Shown: positions 42,300 to 48,595 of the stretch, piece after piece | Layout of the letters: the number at the start of each line of letters is the position of its first letter | Position numbering within the stretch: the first letter of the stretch is position 1 | NCBI GenBank assembly: GCA_018817595.1 | Contig: JAHITU010000024.1 | Span: 11,155 to 75,154 of the forward strand | Length of the DNA: 64,000 nt | Origin: Patescibacteria group bacterium | GTDB taxonomy: Bacteria; Patescibacteriota; Minisyncoccia; Phycocordibacterales; UBA12079 | Direction: 5' to 3' | Position numbers and translations under genes: made by a program | Notes under the pieces: model-generated | Told to the model about the DNA's origin: nothing | The model's database searches: none | The model's input: the letters and a program-made list of their open reading frames with translations, nothing else

Positions 42300-42445
42300 G
42301 GAAATTATGTTCTGGATTGCTTCCCCAACACTTTGAATTGAATCACTTACTTTTTATTTCAAAAATATTATCTATGTTTTATAAGCTCTATTTATATTAT
42401 TACAACAAAGTGCTGGGTCGCAAAGACGAACGAAACAAAGTATTG
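42300..42445. mobile_element. MITE-like element, copy A (imperfect terminal inverted repeats, AT-rich core)
   Basis: Left end ttctggattgcttccccaacactttg is identical over 26 nt to 48465-48490. Right end caaagtgctgggtcgcaaagacgaa resembles caaagtactgggtcgcaaagacgaa at 48571-48595. Confidence 0.5.
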
Positions 42446-43010
42446 TTTGTCAAAAAATACAAATGAAAAACACCGAGTTCCCGAAGGAAAACGATGTTTT
42501 TCATAGTACTCAAATTTTGGCAAGCCAATATTCGAGTACTTCCTATATAGTAGCAAATTAGAATTAAAAGTCAAGCGTTTTTGTATGTATTGGGGATAAG
42601 TTTTTTGTGTTAGTTTTTGATAGTTTAGAGGTACGACTTCGGTTATTTTAATTTTAGTCCTACGACTTCAGTTAGTGTTTAGACACACAGATAACTAGAA
42701 CAATATTATTACACGCGAAGAAGTCGGAGGACTTTTGAGCTTATAACTAAAGGTTACTGGTATATACGTTGAGAAATCGGACCTCATTAAACATTAATGA
42801 TATTGCATGAAGATTACCGTTTGGTTTTATAACTTCTGGACCTGCCTACCGGTAGGCAGGTTGCTTCGTCGGATAAGGTTTTAATTTTTTCAAAAATTAA
42901 AAAATTGACCTTCCTCGCAAAGACGGAACGAGACGAATGACTGAGTTACTTCTCTATCGTCATACCTAAGGCAGACAGAGACAAATAAAAAAATGTTTAT
43001 AAACAACAAA

Positions 43011-43039
43011 ATCACTTGGACATCGGGTGTCCAAGTGAT
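43011..43039. repeat. Solitary REP palindrome copy (ATCACTTGGACATCGGGTGTCCAAGTGAT) downstream of the S-layer-like gene
   Basis: Same dyad as the RAYT-flanking REPs, 1.6 kb away from the RAYT gene. Confidence 0.7.
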
Positions 43040-43162
43040 TTTTGATAAACAAAAACACCCAGGTGTTATAAATAACACTGAGTGTTTTTGTGCGTTTTGG
43101 TTTATCTTCTGGGGATTCTAGATCCTCTCGAGATTAGACAAAACTAACTTCAATCGCTTTAA

Positions 43163-46100
43163 CTATTTTGAAATAGTTTGAGCTGAGCTTCCGCCTGATG
43201 GCAATCCGTCTACTAGGTATCCGTTTGACCAATCTACATGAGCTAGAGCAGAAGTAGTTGTAGCGTGACCTGACCAAACAAAGTCATTGTTTGTATCAGC
43301 ATCTACAGTTGTTTCTGTTCCCATCAAAGTTGCCATTGCTGGGTAAGCTGCATCTCCTGAAATCTTAGTTGTAACATTTCCTGAGAATGTACCTGTTCCA
43401 GCTGTTAATGTAGTGTCTCCTTCTACTTTAAAGTAGTAAGTAGCACCTGCTGGGATATTCAAAACTGAACTAAATTCAACTTCGTTATCACCAGTTACTA
43501 GAGTAGCTGCTGCAGTTGCAAGTAATCCGTTTGTGTATCCAGATACTGGATTTGAGAAACTTGAATCTGTGTAAGCATATACTTCTAGGTTAGTTACAGT
43601 TGTTGTTCCTGATACAGCTGAAGCTGATGAAGTAGCAACATTTACAGTAACTTGGTTAAGTCCGATTCCATCACTTAATCCATCAGCATCTTTAGCTGTA
43701 ATGCTGAATTTGTACAATTCAACATCTGTTGATGAGATTAACACTGTGTTAGAAACATTAATCTTAGCAAATTCTGGATAAGCTCTGAATACTCTCACTC
43801 CATCAACAGCAGTATCTGATGCTGATGTTGTGTTGATAGTTGTTCCTGATTGTGCTCCTACTCCTTGAGTAGATGCAGTATAACCACCGTCAAAGTTTAC
43901 TTTCAATAATGCTCCTTGTGTTCCAACTTGAGATGTTCCGATCTTTGCAAGATCTCCTTTAATTGTCATAACTTTTGATCCATCTTTTGGAATCATAAAG
44001 TCAGTTGTCAAAGTAGATGTTGCGTAATCTGTACTTGTGAATGTAGCAACACCAACTTGTGTTGTTCCATCCCACAAAGTAACTCTAGTTAAGTCTGAAG
44101 GTGAACTTGAAGCAGCAGTCAATTGTAGACCTAATTTCTTCAAGTTAATAGCTTCATTTGTTCCTGTGAATTTCAATTTAGCAAGAACTACATCTGTTGT
44201 TCCAGCAGCAACAATCTTGTATGAAGGACTTGAGTCGTCTTTAACTACTGTGAATGTACCACCTGTTGTAGCTGTCATTATTTGTCCTGATCCTGTAGGA
44301 GTAGCTGTTGTGATAGTAGATCCTGAATCAAGACCTGATCCTGTTTGAGCAGCTGTCATACTCCATAGGTAAGTGTCTCCACTTGCTGAAGCTGAAATGT
44401 TACATTTTAGAGCAATTGTTTTTAGTGTTCCTTTAGGAATTACTAGTCCAGCACTGTCTAATGTAAATGTTTGAGCTGCAGTTTCACCTGAAGCAATGTC
44501 TTTGATGTTTGAACCTGTGTTCAAAGCTGTTGTTCCATCAAATAATTGACATCCTGTTTGATATTCTGAATTTGCTCCTGTAACTGTGTTATTTAATACC
44601 AATGTATTAAATTTAACATCTTCTCCTGATGCTGTTGCATCGAATTGGAAATTAGCCATTACAAATCCTTGTGCACCAGCTACCACGTTTTGTGCTACTG
44701 GGCTTGCGGATGTGCTGATTACAGCTGTTCCAGTTTTCAATGTCATTGTGTTTGAAGTCAATGTTGCATCAGGTGTAGGTGTAATTGAGTTACCTGTTGT
44801 TTGACCTGTTACTGTTGTCCAATCATCAGTAGGATTTGTGTCAATAATAATTGTTTGATCATTAACAAAATTTGTTCCTAATTGACCTTTCAATGTGTAA
44901 GTTCCTTTTCCTAATTGGAAAGTAACTGTATCTGTGAAAGTAATTGTTCCTGTTGTTTGTGCTGATACTGAAGTATAAGCTGCATCAACTGGACCAGCTA
45001 CTACTGAACCATTAGCATCAACCAAAGAAACATTAGTGATGTCGTCTACTTGACCTACAGCTGAACTAGCTGCAGCTGACGAACCAGTAAGTGTTACGTT
45101 GAATACCATTGAAGCCACTGAGATTGCTTCTCCTTTAGCTTCAATATCGAATCCACCTAATACTTGGTTGGCAACATTTTCAGCAATATTTTGTGCTTCT
45201 ACTGTTGTTGATTTTGATCCTTGTAATGAACCATTTGAAACAGTTACTACTGAAGCATCATACCAAGGTGTTCCTGTACTGAATCCTGTTCCTGTTGAAG
45301 CAGGAGTAATTCCATATCCGTAAGTTTCACCTGTTACATAAAGATCTGTATTTTTATACAAATCAAATGCAATTGTTCTACCTGATCCTGAAATGATATC
45401 TCCTTTAATAGTGATTTCTTTTGCAAGACCTTTATCTACAACAAGTCCTGTTCCAAATGTAGATGTATAGTATTTACCATCGGATGATACCATTACATCG
45501 TAAGCAACTCCGTCAACATAAGTCTTAAGGTTTCCTAAGTCTGATGCTGAAACTGAACCTGATTGATTCCATCTAATTGAATGAAGTCTAATCTTTTCAG
45601 CTGATCCAGCTGTTACTTTTATAGATGAGAATGTGTATCCGTCTACTCCAACTTCTTTTGTAGCTGTTGCATTAGGATCGTTCACTCCTCGAGCTGGTGT
45701 AGCTGATCCAATTGATAGGGAATCATTCATTGTGTGAGCTGTTCCCATGATTGGAAGAGCACCATTAACAGCAGCTGAAGTATTTACTCCAATCACTGAA
45801 AGTGATCCAACTTGTCCTCTGTATGAAGCCATTGTTGCTGCTGCAACCATGTTTCCAGCAATAGTTACTGTTTTTGAAGTTCCAGCTTTCACTGTGAAGT
45901 TTTCTCCAACTGTAGCTTGGTGTAGTGAGTTCAAAGTTTTAGCAATTCCGATTTGTGTTCCATCTTCATCCAGTAAGATGATTCCTGCGAACGCTGCATC
46001 TGCTGCTAAACCAGTTCTCTCTATTAATAGAGAGTTAACTACTACATCTCCATCAGCACTAGCTGTAAGAATAACTTTTGTGAAAGGAATTCTTGCTGCA

Positions 46101-47333: not shown

Positions 47334-47457
47334 TTCTGGACTGCTTCGCAAGCTCGCAGAGACGGTCACAAAGCGACCTTTACGGTTCGCTTTCAGCGAA
47401 CCGTCCCTGCCTGACGGCAGGCAGGTTTGCGAGGAGTTTGCGACGAAGCAATCCAGA
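47334..47457. repeat. GC-rich composite palindromic repeat with the CCTGCCTGACGGCAGGCAGG module placed centrally
   Basis: ttctggactgcttcgcaagctcgcagagacgg...cctgcctgacggcaggcagg...gcgacgaagcaatccagag. The internal minus-strand and plus-strand ORFs here are spurious. Confidence 0.6.
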
Positions 47458-47526
47458 GTATTTTTTAGAATTCAGGTATCTATTTTAGTTTTAGTCCTCC
47501 GACTTTATTAAATTAAAAGTTTATTG

Positions 47527-48285
47527 TTATTCACTAATCAATGAATATCGGCTCCATCTTCTCTCCCCTTCCTTGTTCAAAAGTTTGTCTTTTAACATTG
47601 ATTGTAATTCTCTTTGGATTGTTTTTTCACTGCAGTCTGAAATTGTCTTTGATATGTCCTTTATAGTTAGTTTTTGTCCTTTAGATAAAATTTCAATGAT
47701 TTTATCACGACGAGATATTTTCTTTTCGTTATTTGTAATCTTATCTGTTTTTGTCTTTTTTGAATCAAAAACATTATGTCCTTTATATTTAAACTGTCCT
47801 TTATCCTCGTTAATGTCTTTTACGGAATTTAAGACATCTTCAATTTCTTTCGGGCGTAAAGATTTGTCTTTAACTTTAAAATAATCCCCTCCTAAATATG
47901 GGGAAAGTTGGTTATTTATTTTAATAGAATTATTTTTTATTAAAGACAAAAGTAAATCAAATTCTCTCTTTAAAACCTCATGATTATCTTCTGAAATTAA
48001 ATTAGTAGCAGAAGCTAATTCTAAAAAGGACAAGATTTCAAAAATCTGAAAAGATATAGTTGAGAAGATTTTAAATTTATCCGAGAAAGAATCATCATTT
48101 AATTTCATAACTTCTGAAAATAGATTTACTGCTTTTTTCCGAACTTCCCATTTTAATGGTTCTTTTTCCTTCAAGTAATCAGTAATTAAATACAAAGCAG
48201 AAACAATCTTCTCTGTTTTTTTAATAAAGAAGGTTAAATATAGGTCATTATTATATCTTTTATTTATAATATCTAATGAATTCAT
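47527..48285 (-). CDS. Hypothetical protein with a C-terminal winged-helix DNA-binding domain
   Basis: C-terminus DKIIEILSKGQKLTIKDISKTISDCSEKTIQRELQSMLKDKLLNKEGERRWSRYSL is typical of wHTH regulator tails. Confidence 0.4.
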   Translation of the reverse strand: MNSLDIINKRYNNDLYLTFFIKKTEKIVSALYLITDYLKEKEPLKWEVRKKAVNLFSEVMKLNDDSFSDKFKIFSTISFQIFEILSFLELASATNLISEDNHEVLKREFDLLLSLIKNNSIKINNQLSPYLGGDYFKVKDKSLRPKEIEDVLNSVKDINEDKGQFKYKGHNVFDSKKTKTDKITNNEKKISRRDKIIEILSKGQKLTIKDISKTISDCSEKTIQRELQSMLKDKLLNKEGERRWSRYSLISE

Positions 48286-48464
48286 TTGTGTCTTTCTTGT
48301 TATTTATATATGTCCATTATATGTCTTTTATTCAGAAACGCAAACATTTTTGTGTCTTTTAAGATGTCTTTTTTATAAAGGACATATAGATTAGTCTAAA
48401 GTTAAAAGTCTATAAAGTCGAAAGTCTTAGAATAAATTTTCAAAATAAATTTATAATTATTATT

Positions 48465-48595
48465 TCTGGATTGCTTCCCCAACACTTTGTTGCAACAATG
48501 TTAATAAAGTTTAAAAAAAATAAACAATAATCTATAAAATAATAGTAAGTAATTTAATTCAAAGTACTGGGTCGCAAAGACGAAAAGATTTAAAC
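48465..48595. mobile_element. MITE-like element, copy B
   Basis: See copy A at 42300-42445: shared 26-nt left end and a related right end. Confidence 0.5.

What the first reader, a model, noticed from the sequence alone, without database searches (positions are those of the whole stretch)
42300..48595. Two copies of a roughly 140-bp MITE-like element with shared 26-nt termini, 6 kb apart
42300-42445 and 48465-48595 begin with the identical ttctggattgcttccccaacactttg and end with caaagt(g/a)ctgggtcgcaaagacgaa. The AT-rich cores differ. The ends are imperfect inverted repeats of each other (CAAAGTG(T/C)TGGG) and resemble the TCTGGA(C/T)TGCTTCG terminus of the GC-rich repeat family, which suggests one superfamily of nonautonomous elements with variable cargo.
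Basis: seen in the sequence. Interest (0 to 1): 0.5.

Follow-up and report, generated by a model that had tools for sequence, protein, structure and literature searches.

The report
Nested palindromic repeat with flipped core
The two look-alike 121-base stretches are copies of a small non-coding repeat that is scattered through this tiny-celled (Patescibacteria) bacterium and its relatives, and their AT-rich middles are the same sequence turned around rather than different cargo, so this is an unusual selfish-DNA repeat and not a new gene system.

Summary
The copies lie at 42310-42430 and 48464-48584 and are 121 nt each. The left 26 nt are identical and the right 25 nt match at 24 positions. 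The 70-nt "different" cores are reverse complements of each other (51/70 identical reversed, 24/70 direct).

Each copy has three layers:
- Outer boxes TTCTGGATTGCTTC and TCGCAAAGACGAA. Together these form one unit of the window's GC-rich repeat family. The plain ~30-nt form of this unit occurs in many phyla.
- A 12-bp inverted repeat, CCCAGCACTTTG / CAAAGTGCTGGG.
- A conserved AT-rich loop.

A related metagenome holds six more full copies in unrelated gene contexts. It also holds variants with the same stems but loops of 14, 45 or 137 nt. Relatives with about 80% identical FtsK lack the element at both syntenic sites. A relative with 92% identical FtsK has it upstream of ftsK with the loop flipped.

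I found no target-site duplications, no autonomous partner, no recombinase in the window and no Rfam match.

Best reading: a dispersed, non-autonomous, nested REP/MITE-like repeat whose loop inverts recurrently through its stem repeats. Segmental duplication is rejected. A programmed invertible switch remains possible but unsupported.

The parts
42310..42430 (+). Copy 1, 121 nt: box A, left stem repeat, inverted core, right stem repeat, box B
42310..42323 (+). Copy 1 box A, TTCTGGATTGCTTC (left half of a family unit)
42324..42335 (+). Copy 1 left stem repeat, CCCAACACTTTG
42336..42405 (-). Copy 1 core, 70 nt and AT-rich. It is inverted relative to the outer boxes; the family consensus reads on the - strand.
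   Evidence: 51/70 reversed vs 24/70 direct; nhmmer hit on - strand, E=4.7e-9
42406..42417 (+). Copy 1 right stem repeat, CAAAGTGCTGGG
42418..42430 (+). Copy 1 box B, TCGCAAAGACGAA (right half of a family unit)
48464..48584 (+). Copy 2, 121 nt, with the core in the family's majority orientation. It lies between the divergent 252-aa HTH gene and ftsK.
   Evidence: An independent Logan assembly of the same organism shows the same orientation.
48464..48477 (+). Copy 2 box A
48478..48489 (+). Copy 2 left stem repeat, CCCAACACTTTG
48490..48559 (+). Copy 2 core, 70 nt, forward orientation
   Evidence: nhmmer hit on + strand, E=5.9e-10; 80-86% identical to L120, L124 and L125 cores
48560..48571 (+). 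Copy 2 right stem repeat, CAAAGTACTGGG
48572..48584 (+). Copy 2 box B
42834..42937 (+). A third family unit inside the finding's span. Box A is split by a CCTGCCTACCGGTAGGCAGG hairpin, and the middle is a different AT-rich hairpin.
   Evidence: DNA fold z = -4.2
47335..47457 (.). Canonical full palindromic family element (TCTGGACTGCTTCG ... CGAAGCAATCCAGA) between the 1187-aa gene and the 252-aa gene
   Evidence: DNA fold z = -6.9
51375..51466 (+). Canonical family element upstream of recA: box A, 6-nt spacer, box B, two small hairpins, reverse box B
   Evidence: DNA fold z = -7.0
10899..11031 (-). Canonical family element in the ribosomal-protein operon
   Evidence: (D4, D14, D16)
20998..21129 (-). 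Canonical family element in the ribosomal-protein operon
29161..29260 (-). Family element that is degenerate at its right end
1127..1322 (+). Full family element lying inside the murB reading frame
40604..41287 (-). RAYT-like Y1 (IS200-type, HUH) transposase gene, 1 kb from copy 1. It is the only candidate mobilising enzyme in the window and is flanked by a different hairpin family.
   Evidence: Pfam PF01797, E=9.6e-8

Best explanation
The two sequences are members of a dispersed, non-autonomous, nested-palindrome repeat family of a Patescibacteria lineage.

Anatomy (shown). Each copy is one arm unit of the genome's GC-rich REP-like family. Box A is TTCTGGATTGCTTC and box B is TCGCAAAGACGAA. 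In ordinary units these are separated by 4-21 nt in the window, and by 4-15 nt (5 in most units) in the genomes of other phyla. In these two copies the spacer is a hairpin with a 12-bp stem (CCCAGCACTTTG / CAAAGTGCTGGG) and a conserved 70-nt AT-rich loop.

Origin (shown). The copies reached their present intergenic sites by dispersal of the whole 118-121-nt unit, not by duplication of a segment.

Mobilisation (inferred). The unit is moved in trans without target-site duplication. The most plausible route is as single-stranded hairpin DNA handled by a HUH/Y1 enzyme of the kind encoded 1 kb away. That enzyme link is not shown.

Inversion (pattern shown, mechanism inferred). The loop is flipped in copy 1, and it is flipped at the ftsK site of a sister genome. 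The outer part of the stem repeats stays in place. This is the signature of recurrent exchange or template switching between the two 12-bp stem arms.

Function. No host function is indicated.
For: Anatomy and inversion:
- Exact coordinates and the inverted core.
- The window's A-variant in the left stem repeat is kept on the left in both orientations. This points to flipping in place with the exchange inside the repeat, not to re-insertion of the whole hairpin.
- Inversion recurs. Two of nine 70-nt cores are inverted. One is at the site orthologous to copy 2, in the genome whose FtsK is 92% identical (L128: 51/70 reversed vs 23/70 direct, shuffle maximum 24).
- Small inversions promoted by hairpins are an established passive process (PMC12371153).

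Family membership:
- The outer boxes are shared with at least 8 other elements in the window.
- The boxes separated by 4-15 nt (5 nt in most units) gave more than 119 stretches from Legionella, Coxiellaceae, Methylobacterium, Bradyrhizobium, Paceibacterota, Peribacteria, Bacteroidales and Eubacteriales. These are mostly hairpin dimers.
- Other units in relatives also carry hairpins between box A and box B (window 42834-42937; L133/L134).
- The same stem repeats enclose loops of 14, 45 and 137 nt.

Dispersal:
- Six further full copies lie in 5 contigs of metagenome Ga0180007, with perfect stem repeats and homologous 69-71-nt cores, in unrelated housekeeping contexts.
- The termini are nearly invariant across copies, with only isolated substitutions. 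The cores are 65-97% identical. This pattern is expected when only the ends are needed for propagation.
- The element is absent from the syntenic sites of relatives with 79-80% identical FtsK.
- The ftsK promoter-like TGn-extended -10 lies downstream of the element and is conserved whether or not the element is present.
Against: - Mobility is inferred from distribution only. No clean empty site could be aligned, because the intergenic DNA of the 80% relatives is too diverged, so the true ends are not proven.
- The RAYT-like gene is flanked by a different hairpin (CACTTGGACACCNGGTGTCCAAGTG), so nothing ties it to this family.
- The core keeps 65-97% identity and a fixed length of 69-71 nt across genomes. 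A purely selfish loop does not obviously require that.
- As single-stranded DNA the two window copies fold only weakly (z = -0.6 to -2.1).
- Twelve base pairs is short for homologous recombination, so the inversion mechanism is a proposal.
Confidence: 0.6

Rival explanations
1. A family of programmed invertible DNA switches (invertons). A trans-acting invertase recognises the shared 12-bp repeats and flips the 70-nt AT-rich cassette, which would carry a promoter or a protein-binding site. This would vary expression of neighbouring genes such as ftsK, the divergent HTH gene, or the genes downstream of the 1187-aa surface protein.
For: - Identical short inverted repeats flank a conserved, fixed-length AT-rich segment at many loci.
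- Both orientations are seen, including at one orthologous site that lies between divergent genes.
- The exchange point lies inside the repeats.
- Copy 1 lies just downstream of a large secreted surface-protein gene. Invertons often sit near such genes (PMC11892184 abstract).
Against: - The window holds no serine or tyrosine recombinase among 29 ORFs scanned.
- Promoter-like matches are no more frequent than in shuffles. The best -35/-10 candidate in the core has a poorly conserved -10.
- Core orientation relative to flanking genes is inconsistent. It is co-directional at some loci and antisense or convergent at L120, L123 and L125.
- Seven of nine copies share one orientation relative to the outer boxes.
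- An 82-bp centre-to-centre distance is at the lower limit for recombinase synapsis (own knowledge).
- The two assemblies of the window organism agree in orientation.
Confidence: 0.12
2. A structured RNA element, either cis-regulatory or a small RNA. The stems are kept for RNA folding and the AU-rich loop is a binding platform.
For: - The stem mismatches in the window copies are A.C on the + strand but G.U on the - strand. The - strand RNA folds better than shuffles (z = -3.3 and -2.3, against -1.6 and -0.6 for the + strand).
- Canonical family members fold very strongly (z about -7).
- Small hairpins in the family vary in sequence while keeping their pairing.
Against: - No Rfam family matches, even at permissive thresholds.
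- The 12-bp stem shows no compensatory change in any copy. It is conserved as sequence.
- Orientation relative to flanking transcription is mixed.
- Inversion of the loop would replace its sequence by the complement in any transcript, yet inverted copies are no more decayed than the others.
- The palindromes fold equally on both strands, as expected for DNA repeats.
Confidence: 0.1
3. A classical transposase-dependent MITE. The 12-bp repeats would be terminal inverted repeats of an IS, and the hairpin plus loop would insert specifically into the spacer of box A/box B units in either orientation.
For: - Perfect 12-bp inverted repeats bound a small AT-rich non-coding body of variable content, 14 to 137 nt.
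- A possible 2-bp TC repeat sits at the junctions (GCT-TC|CCCAG ... CTGGG|TC-GCA).
- REP-like repeats are known targets of some IS families, such as IS1111 in Coxiella (PMC5896051).
Against: - All copies with intact A/B boxes have the same junctions with those boxes. The diverged L122 copy has only degenerate boxes.
- The 70-nt core was never found outside the box A/B context in 1.19 Mb. This suggests that the composite unit spreads, not the hairpin alone.
- The left-repeat A variant does not move with the inverted core.
- No element with these repeats encloses a gene.
Confidence: 0.1
4. A segmental duplication or chance similarity confined to this locus.
For: The two copies lie in the same orientation only 6.15 kb apart, and there are no target-site duplications.
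Against: - Nothing outside the 121 nt is shared between the two sites.
- At least 10 further members occur elsewhere in unrelated contexts.
- The 26-mer gives 0 matches in shuffles.
Confidence: 0.02

Closest known systems
CGTC-tagged REPs (Di Nocera, De Gregorio & Rocco 2013, PMC3733652)
   Same: On the reverse strand a unit reads CGTC-TTTGC...GCAAT-CCAG, so it has a CGTC head, a stem that begins with A/T pairs and a CCA tail. In other phyla the units are mostly head-to-head hairpin dimers. They are intergenic but also occur in frame inside genes. They are spread over several phyla, have no dedicated transposase, and are nested within or next to other palindromes.
   Different: The defined CGTC families have 8-9-bp stems and 4-5-nt loops. 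Here the basal stem is only 4-5 bp (TTGC/GCAA) and the 'loop' runs from about 12 nt to more than 100 nt. Peptides listed for intragenic CGTC-1, -3 and -4 (VIPAKAGI, MAGPSPAMT and others) correspond to other sequences. The published consensus figure could not be read, so identity with any CGTC family is unproven.
REP / BIME / REPIN elements mobilised by RAYT (Y1 HUH) transposases
   Same: These are short GC-rich extragenic palindromes, often paired in inverted orientation, with many copies per genome and no target-site duplications. A RAYT-like gene is present in the window.
   Different: There is no GTAG tag. The RAYT-like gene is flanked by a different hairpin. The two copies studied are singletons carrying a 94-nt insert.
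Bacterial MITEs with structured bodies (Neisseria Correia elements, ERIC, Rickettsia RPE, Coxiella QMITE1/2; PMC5896051)
   Same: These are 100-200-nt, non-coding, dispersed elements with conserved ends and variable interiors. They fold into long stem-loops, sometimes lie in frame inside genes, and some contain or are derived from REPs.
   Different: The termini here are not inverted repeats of each other. No TA or other target-site duplication was found, and there is no related IS.
Hairpin-associated small inversions of plastid non-coding DNA (Kelchner & Wendel 1996; reviewed in PMC12371153)
   Same: A loop between short inverted repeats flips recurrently, even between close relatives, without any dedicated enzyme.
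   Different: Plastid cases are typically 4-50 bp. Here the loop is 70 bp, lies in a bacterial genome and sits inside a multi-copy repeat.
Invertons with shared repeats under one master invertase (for example Bacteroides fragilis Mpi-controlled promoters; cited in PMC11602134)
   Same: Many loci share the same short inverted repeats around an AT-rich segment, and both orientations are observed.
   Different: The segment is much shorter. No invertase and no convincing promoter were found, and there is no evidence of mixed orientations within a population.

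Membership tests
MITE | Terminal inverted repeats at the element's ends | tested here: not met
   The outer 14 nt (TTCTGGATTGCTTC) and 13 nt (TCGCAAAGACGAA) pair over only 4 bp (TTGC/GCAA). The 12-bp inverted repeat is internal.
MITE | Target-site duplications flanking each copy | tested here: not met
   In 9 copies, with boundaries shifted by -2 to +5 nt, there was no consistent direct repeat, and 3 copies had none of 3 nt or more. A 2-bp TC at the inner junctions cannot be told from conserved sequence.
MITE | Small, non-coding and present in multiple copies at unrelated sites | tested here: met
   There are 2 copies in the window, 1 in L128, 6 full copies plus 4 variants or a truncated copy in Ga0180007, and 1 in Ga0208647. 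Neighbours are housekeeping genes with no synteny.
MITE | An autonomous partner (IS) with matching ends | tested here: inconclusive
   None was found in the window or in 1.19 Mb of held loci.
REP/REPIN (RAYT-associated) | Conserved GTAG tetranucleotide at the foot of a short hairpin | tested here: not met
   There is no GTAG. The units end in CGTC/GACG and CCAG/CTGG.
REP/REPIN (RAYT-associated) | Copies of the repeat flank the RAYT gene | tested here: not met
   The RAYT-like gene 40604-41287 is flanked by CACTTGGACACCNGGTGTCCAAGTG hairpins, not by box A/box B units.
REP/REPIN (RAYT-associated) | Units organised as inverted pairs that fold into one long hairpin | tested here: met
   This is met for canonical family members (47335-47457, 51375-51466, 10899-11031; z about -7; -+ pairs in 11 of 16 adjacent pairs elsewhere). 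It is not met for the two copies studied, which lack a partner arm.
CGTC-tagged REPs | CGTC head and CCA tail | tested here: met
   The reverse strand of each unit reads CGTCTTTGCGA...GAAGCAATCCAG.
CGTC-tagged REPs | Stem of 8-9 bp and loop of 4-5 nt | tested here: not met
   The basal stem is 4-5 bp. The enclosed segment is about 12 nt in the commonest units and about 99 nt (GA, the 94-nt hairpin, GAA) in these two copies.
CGTC-tagged REPs | Sequence matches one of the consensus families CGTC-1 to CGTC-4 | tested here: inconclusive
   The consensus sequences are in a figure that is not held. Peptides listed for intragenic CGTC-1, -3 and -4 copies are not those this unit would encode. The paper does not mention ATTGC or GCAAT motifs, Legionella or Methylobacterium.
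Inverton (programmed invertible element) | Inverted repeats bracketing a segment found in both orientations | tested here: met
   Shown between paralogues and at an orthologous site in two genomes.
Inverton (programmed invertible element) | Both orientations coexist within one population | not testable with these tools
   No reads are available. Two assemblies of the window organism agree, and their contig breaks are explained by the repeat itself.
Inverton (programmed invertible element) | A site-specific recombinase acts on the repeats | tested here: not met
   No recombinase domain was found in 29 window ORFs. One elsewhere in the genome cannot be excluded.
Inverton (programmed invertible element) | The segment carries a promoter or other orientation-dependent signal | tested here: inconclusive
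   Promoter-like hits are at the shuffle level. The candidate TTGCAA-16-TAnnnA has a weak, variable -10.
Any Rfam RNA family | Covariance-model match | tested here: not met
   There were 0 matches at gathering thresholds in the window. Only far sub-threshold matches appeared at permissive E-values.

The most novel reading that the evidence does not exclude
The 12-bp repeats define a multi-locus set of very small invertible cassettes in an ultra-small Patescibacteria genome. A trans-acting enzyme would flip them and so couple the state of many intergenic regions, including the ftsK/HTH divergent region and the region downstream of the major surface protein. This would be phase variation built on a REP-like repeat scaffold whose 30-nt outer unit is shared across phyla.
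Probability: 0.1. Interest if true: 0.75.

Novelty: new variant of a known kind. Interest (0 to 1): 0.4.

Why it matters
Patescibacteria have tiny, streamlined genomes, yet this window is full of nested palindromic repeats, some of them sitting in frame inside genes.

The work shows that one such repeat is a modular unit with outer boxes shared across phyla. Its stem is constant while its loop varies in content and flips in orientation. That gives a concrete handle on how non-autonomous DNA persists and diversifies in reduced genomes.

It also provides ready-made loci for testing whether short-repeat loop inversion in bacteria is passive or regulated. In practice, the family breaks short-read assemblies at these sites, and it could be mistaken for variable cargo or for a novel RNA.

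Tried and rejected
- Rfam at gathering and permissive thresholds on the window, four foreign loci and the 137-nt cargo: nothing credible.
- tRNA/tmRNA scan: none.
- Exact 25-mer in species-representative genomes: 0 hits.
- The 12-bp inverted-repeat (stem) pattern in viral contigs gave 0 hits, and the box pattern gave 1 hit. The family is therefore not phage-borne.
- Literature search for the box sequences: only unrelated primer matches. No paper links Patescibacteria with REPs.
- Promoter and terminator scans: at the shuffle level.
- Synteny between the window and the metagenome copies: none.
- Empty-site alignment at the ftsK site, at the site downstream of the surface-protein gene, and at the cysteine-desulfurase site of L125: the relatives are too diverged to define insertion boundaries.
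- Composite-transposon idea (two same-orientation copies bracketing 4-6 kb): the enclosed genes are a surface protein plus an HTH protein in the window, and L25-neighbour, MazF-like and RF genes in L121. No transposase is present.
- Extending the window into its 121,632-nt parent contig: only short Logan contigs were returned.
- Using G.U versus A.C asymmetry to pick the folded strand: it is consistent in the two copies but contradictory in canonical members, so I dropped it.
- NCBIfam gave no name for the RAYT-like, 252-aa or 1187-aa proteins.

Full report
**1. What is in the sequence**

The 26-mer TTCTGGATTGCTTCCCCAACACTTTG occurs exactly twice in the window, at 42310 and 48464, both on the + strand. 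No match appears in 100 shuffles even with three mismatches allowed. The conserved right ends are CAAAGTGCTGGGTCGCAAAGACGAA (to 42430) and CAAAGTACTGGGTCGCAAAGACGAA (to 48584).

Both copies are therefore exactly 121 nt, and both have a 70-nt AT-rich middle. Nothing outside the 121 nt is shared between the two sites.

The core of copy 2 is the reverse complement of the core of copy 1:
- Ungapped identity is 51/70 reversed against 24/70 direct.
- The global alignment score is 33, against a mean of 6.4, sd 3.5 and maximum 22 in 2000 shuffles.
- Neither core is self-complementary.

**2. Anatomy**

The 26-nt and 25-nt termini are composite.

The inner 12 nt (CCCAACACTTTG and CAAAGTRCTGGG) are an imperfect inverted repeat. 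The outer parts (TTCTGGATTGCTTC and TCGCAAAGACGAA) are two different boxes that pair over only 4 bp (TTGC/GCAA) in predicted folds.

Both boxes are hallmarks of the window's GC-rich intergenic repeat family. TCTGGAYTGCTTC gives 13 matches against 2.4 expected, and TCGCARAGACGAA gives 16 against 1.3 expected.

In ordinary members the two boxes are 4-21 nt apart. They are followed by two small hairpins and then by the reverse-complement boxes, which gives a long imperfect palindrome. Examples are 51375-51466, 47335-47457, 10899-11031 and 20998-21129. These fold far better than shuffles, with z about -7.

So each copy in the finding is a single box A/box B unit whose short spacer is replaced by a 12-bp-stem hairpin with a 70-nt loop. 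A third unit within the finding's span (42834-42937) has a different AT-rich hairpin in the same position. It also has a CCTGCC...GGCAGG hairpin splitting box A.

**3. The outer unit is not special to this genome**

These range from 31% to 73% GC. They include Legionella, Coxiellaceae, Methylobacterium, Bradyrhizobium, Sphingomonas, Nitrosomonas, Bacteroidales, Eubacteriales, Paceibacterota and Peribacteria.

In those genomes:
- The spacer is usually 5 nt.
- Units typically form hairpin dimers of the form CGTC...CCAG, a loop, then CTGG...GACG.

Rfam has no family for them. The box sequences retrieve no relevant paper.

The layout matches the CGTC-tagged REP superfamily of Di Nocera et al. in several respects: a CGTC head, a CCA tail, head-to-head dimers, occasional in-frame intragenic copies and no dedicated transposase (PMC3733652). 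Two things do not match. The defining 8-9-bp stem and 4-5-nt loop are absent, and the peptides listed for intragenic CGTC copies correspond to other sequences. I treat this as the closest described kind, not as proven membership.

**4. Relatives of the hairpin-bearing subfamily**

The exact left end is absent from species-representative genomes. A metagenome scan found seven loci.

Six of these, in five contigs of sample Ga0180007, carry the complete unit. They have perfect stems (CCCAGCACTTTG / CAAAGTGCTGGG) and a homologous core of 69-71 nt. One locus, from Ga0208647, has the same boxes and stems around a 14-nt loop.

Further members turned up in the same contigs:
- Two copies share boxes and stems but carry a different 137-nt interior, which has its own nested hairpins.
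- One copy has a 45-nt loop.
- One copy is truncated.

An HMM of the 70-nt core finds it only at the nine known places in 1.19 Mb, never outside the box/stem context. The termini are nearly invariant across copies, with only isolated substitutions, while the cores are 65-97% identical.

The neighbours are unrelated housekeeping genes with no synteny to the window. This rules out segmental duplication.

**5. Presence, absence and orientation at orthologous sites**

FtsK homologues identify the organism as a Patescibacteria group bacterium, with a 100% match on a 121,632-nt contig. They also gave syntenic loci carrying the surface protein, the 251-aa protein, FtsK, the GlucB-like protein, RecA and EF-P.

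Relatives with 79-80% identical FtsK lack the element upstream of ftsK. They also lack it next to the conserved block that adjoins copy 1.

The closest relative is GCA_018902735.1, with 92% identical FtsK. It has the element at the ftsK site, but with the core inverted relative to the window:
- Identity is 51/70 reversed against 23/70 direct.
- The alignment score is 33, against a shuffle maximum of 24.

Thus two of nine cores are inverted, and one of them sits at an orthologous site.

In the window both copies carry the same A variant in the left stem repeat, regardless of core orientation. The exchange therefore lay inside the repeat, inboard of that position. This argues for flipping in place and against re-insertion of the whole hairpin.

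An independent assembly of the window organism shows the same orientation of copy 2. Its contigs break in the shared right-hand repeat, as expected for a repeat.

**6. Tests of the MITE model**

- No target-site duplication is present in any of nine copies, even with boundaries allowed to shift.
- No pair of these repeats brackets a gene.
- Among 29 window ORFs scanned against Pfam there is no recombinase or conventional transposase.
- The only mobile-DNA enzyme is a RAYT-like Y1 (PF01797) gene at 40604-41287, with HUH and Tyr motifs visible. It is flanked, and even interrupted in frame, by a different hairpin, CACTTGGACACCNGGTGTCCAAGTG.
- Clean empty sites could not be aligned, because the intergenic DNA of the available relatives is too diverged.

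**7. Tests of functional models**

Promoter model:
- Promoter-like matches in and around the copies are no more frequent than in shuffles.
- The best candidate in the core (TTGCAA, 16 nt, TAnnnA) has a weak and variable second hexamer.
- The ftsK promoter-like extended -10 lies downstream of the element and is conserved in relatives that lack the element.
- Core orientation relative to neighbouring genes is mixed.

RNA model:
- The - strand of the two copies folds better than shuffles (z = -3.3 and -2.3). The stem mismatches are G.U on that strand.
- However, the stem shows no compensatory substitutions in any copy.
- As DNA, the window copies fold weakly.

**8. Conclusion**

The most economical account is a dispersed, non-autonomous, nested REP/MITE-like repeat. 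It is a REP-like unit that acquired a stem-loop in its spacer and then spread as a composite. Its loop inverts from time to time through the 12-bp stem arms, as hairpin loops do passively in plastid DNA (PMC12371153).

These points are shown:
- the anatomy
- the family relationships
- the dispersal
- absence from more distant relatives
- the recurrent inversion

These points are inferred:
- mobilisation as single-stranded hairpin DNA by a HUH-type enzyme
- the template-switch or short-repeat exchange that produces the inversion

A programmed multi-locus switch is not excluded. It is the most interesting reading, and it can be tested directly by orientation-specific read mapping.

Noticed in passing
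window 1127-1322 (within ORF 689-1921, - strand): A full box A/box B palindromic element lies inside the murB reading frame. The ORF is 410 aa. The Pfam domains cover aa 35-164 and 288-410, and the element encodes roughly aa 200-265, apparently in frame. This resembles Rickettsia RPEs and intragenic REPs.
   Followed up: partly
window 40555-41392: The RAYT-like Y1 transposase gene is flanked by CACTTGGACACCNGGTGTCCAAGTG hairpins and carries one in frame inside the ORF (about 41095-41120). The downstream hairpin and one of the two upstream hairpins are followed by (A/G)TTATCCACAG. The 9-mer TTATCCACA, which is the DnaA-box consensus, occurs 6 times in the window against 0.8 expected. The motif GTTATCCACAGGTTATGCA recurs in L129 864-884.
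   Followed up: partly
window ~42445-42575 (- strand); L129 735-860: A conserved non-coding block sits downstream of the 1187-aa surface-protein gene. It has a promoter-like TTGACT-16-TACTAT, then about 90 nt ending in a GC-rich hairpin plus a T run, which looks like a small RNA. It is conserved in a relative with 80% identical FtsK and has no Rfam family. Copy 1 sits immediately after its terminator-like hairpin.
   Followed up: partly
L133 9855-9890 vs L129 6600-6640; window 42840-42859, 10905-10925, 21003-21022: The CCTGCCTGCCGGCAGGCAGG hairpin is present in L133 and absent in L129 upstream of ftsK, with TTAGAAA on both sides (a possible 7-bp target duplication). In three window elements the same hairpin sits at the same point of box A (TCTGGA|TTGC). 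This suggests a second small element that targets the first.
   Followed up: partly
L121 9453-9613 and 13407-13566: Two copies have the same boxes and stem repeats as the finding but enclose a different 137-nt interior with its own nested hairpins (RNA fold z down to -5.8). There is no Rfam family.
   Followed up: partly
L133 12270-12640 / L134 9350-9650 vs window 50958-50965: In one relative a block of about 290 nt, made of several box A/box B-type units, separates ftsK from the next gene. In the window and in L129 these two genes overlap.
   Followed up: partly
window 10858-10892, 21957-21991, 22292-22326, 23081-23115, 24297-24331, 32161-32195, 54657-54691, 55525-55559: Eight copies of an AAATTTGCGAAGCAAATTT-type hairpin lie mostly after ribosomal-protein genes. 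They may be terminators or another repeat family.
   Followed up: no
L048 1700-2200 (Legionella quateirensis): Three tandem 176-bp units each contain the CGTC...CCAG / CTGG...GACG hairpin dimer, so the cross-phylum unit can also occur in tandem arrays.
   Followed up: no
window 43163-46726 (- strand): An 1187-aa Thr/Ala/Gly-rich secreted protein has a signal peptide and no Pfam or NCBIfam match. It is conserved in synteny in relatives (1175-1194 aa) and is probably the major surface-layer protein of this lineage.
   Followed up: no
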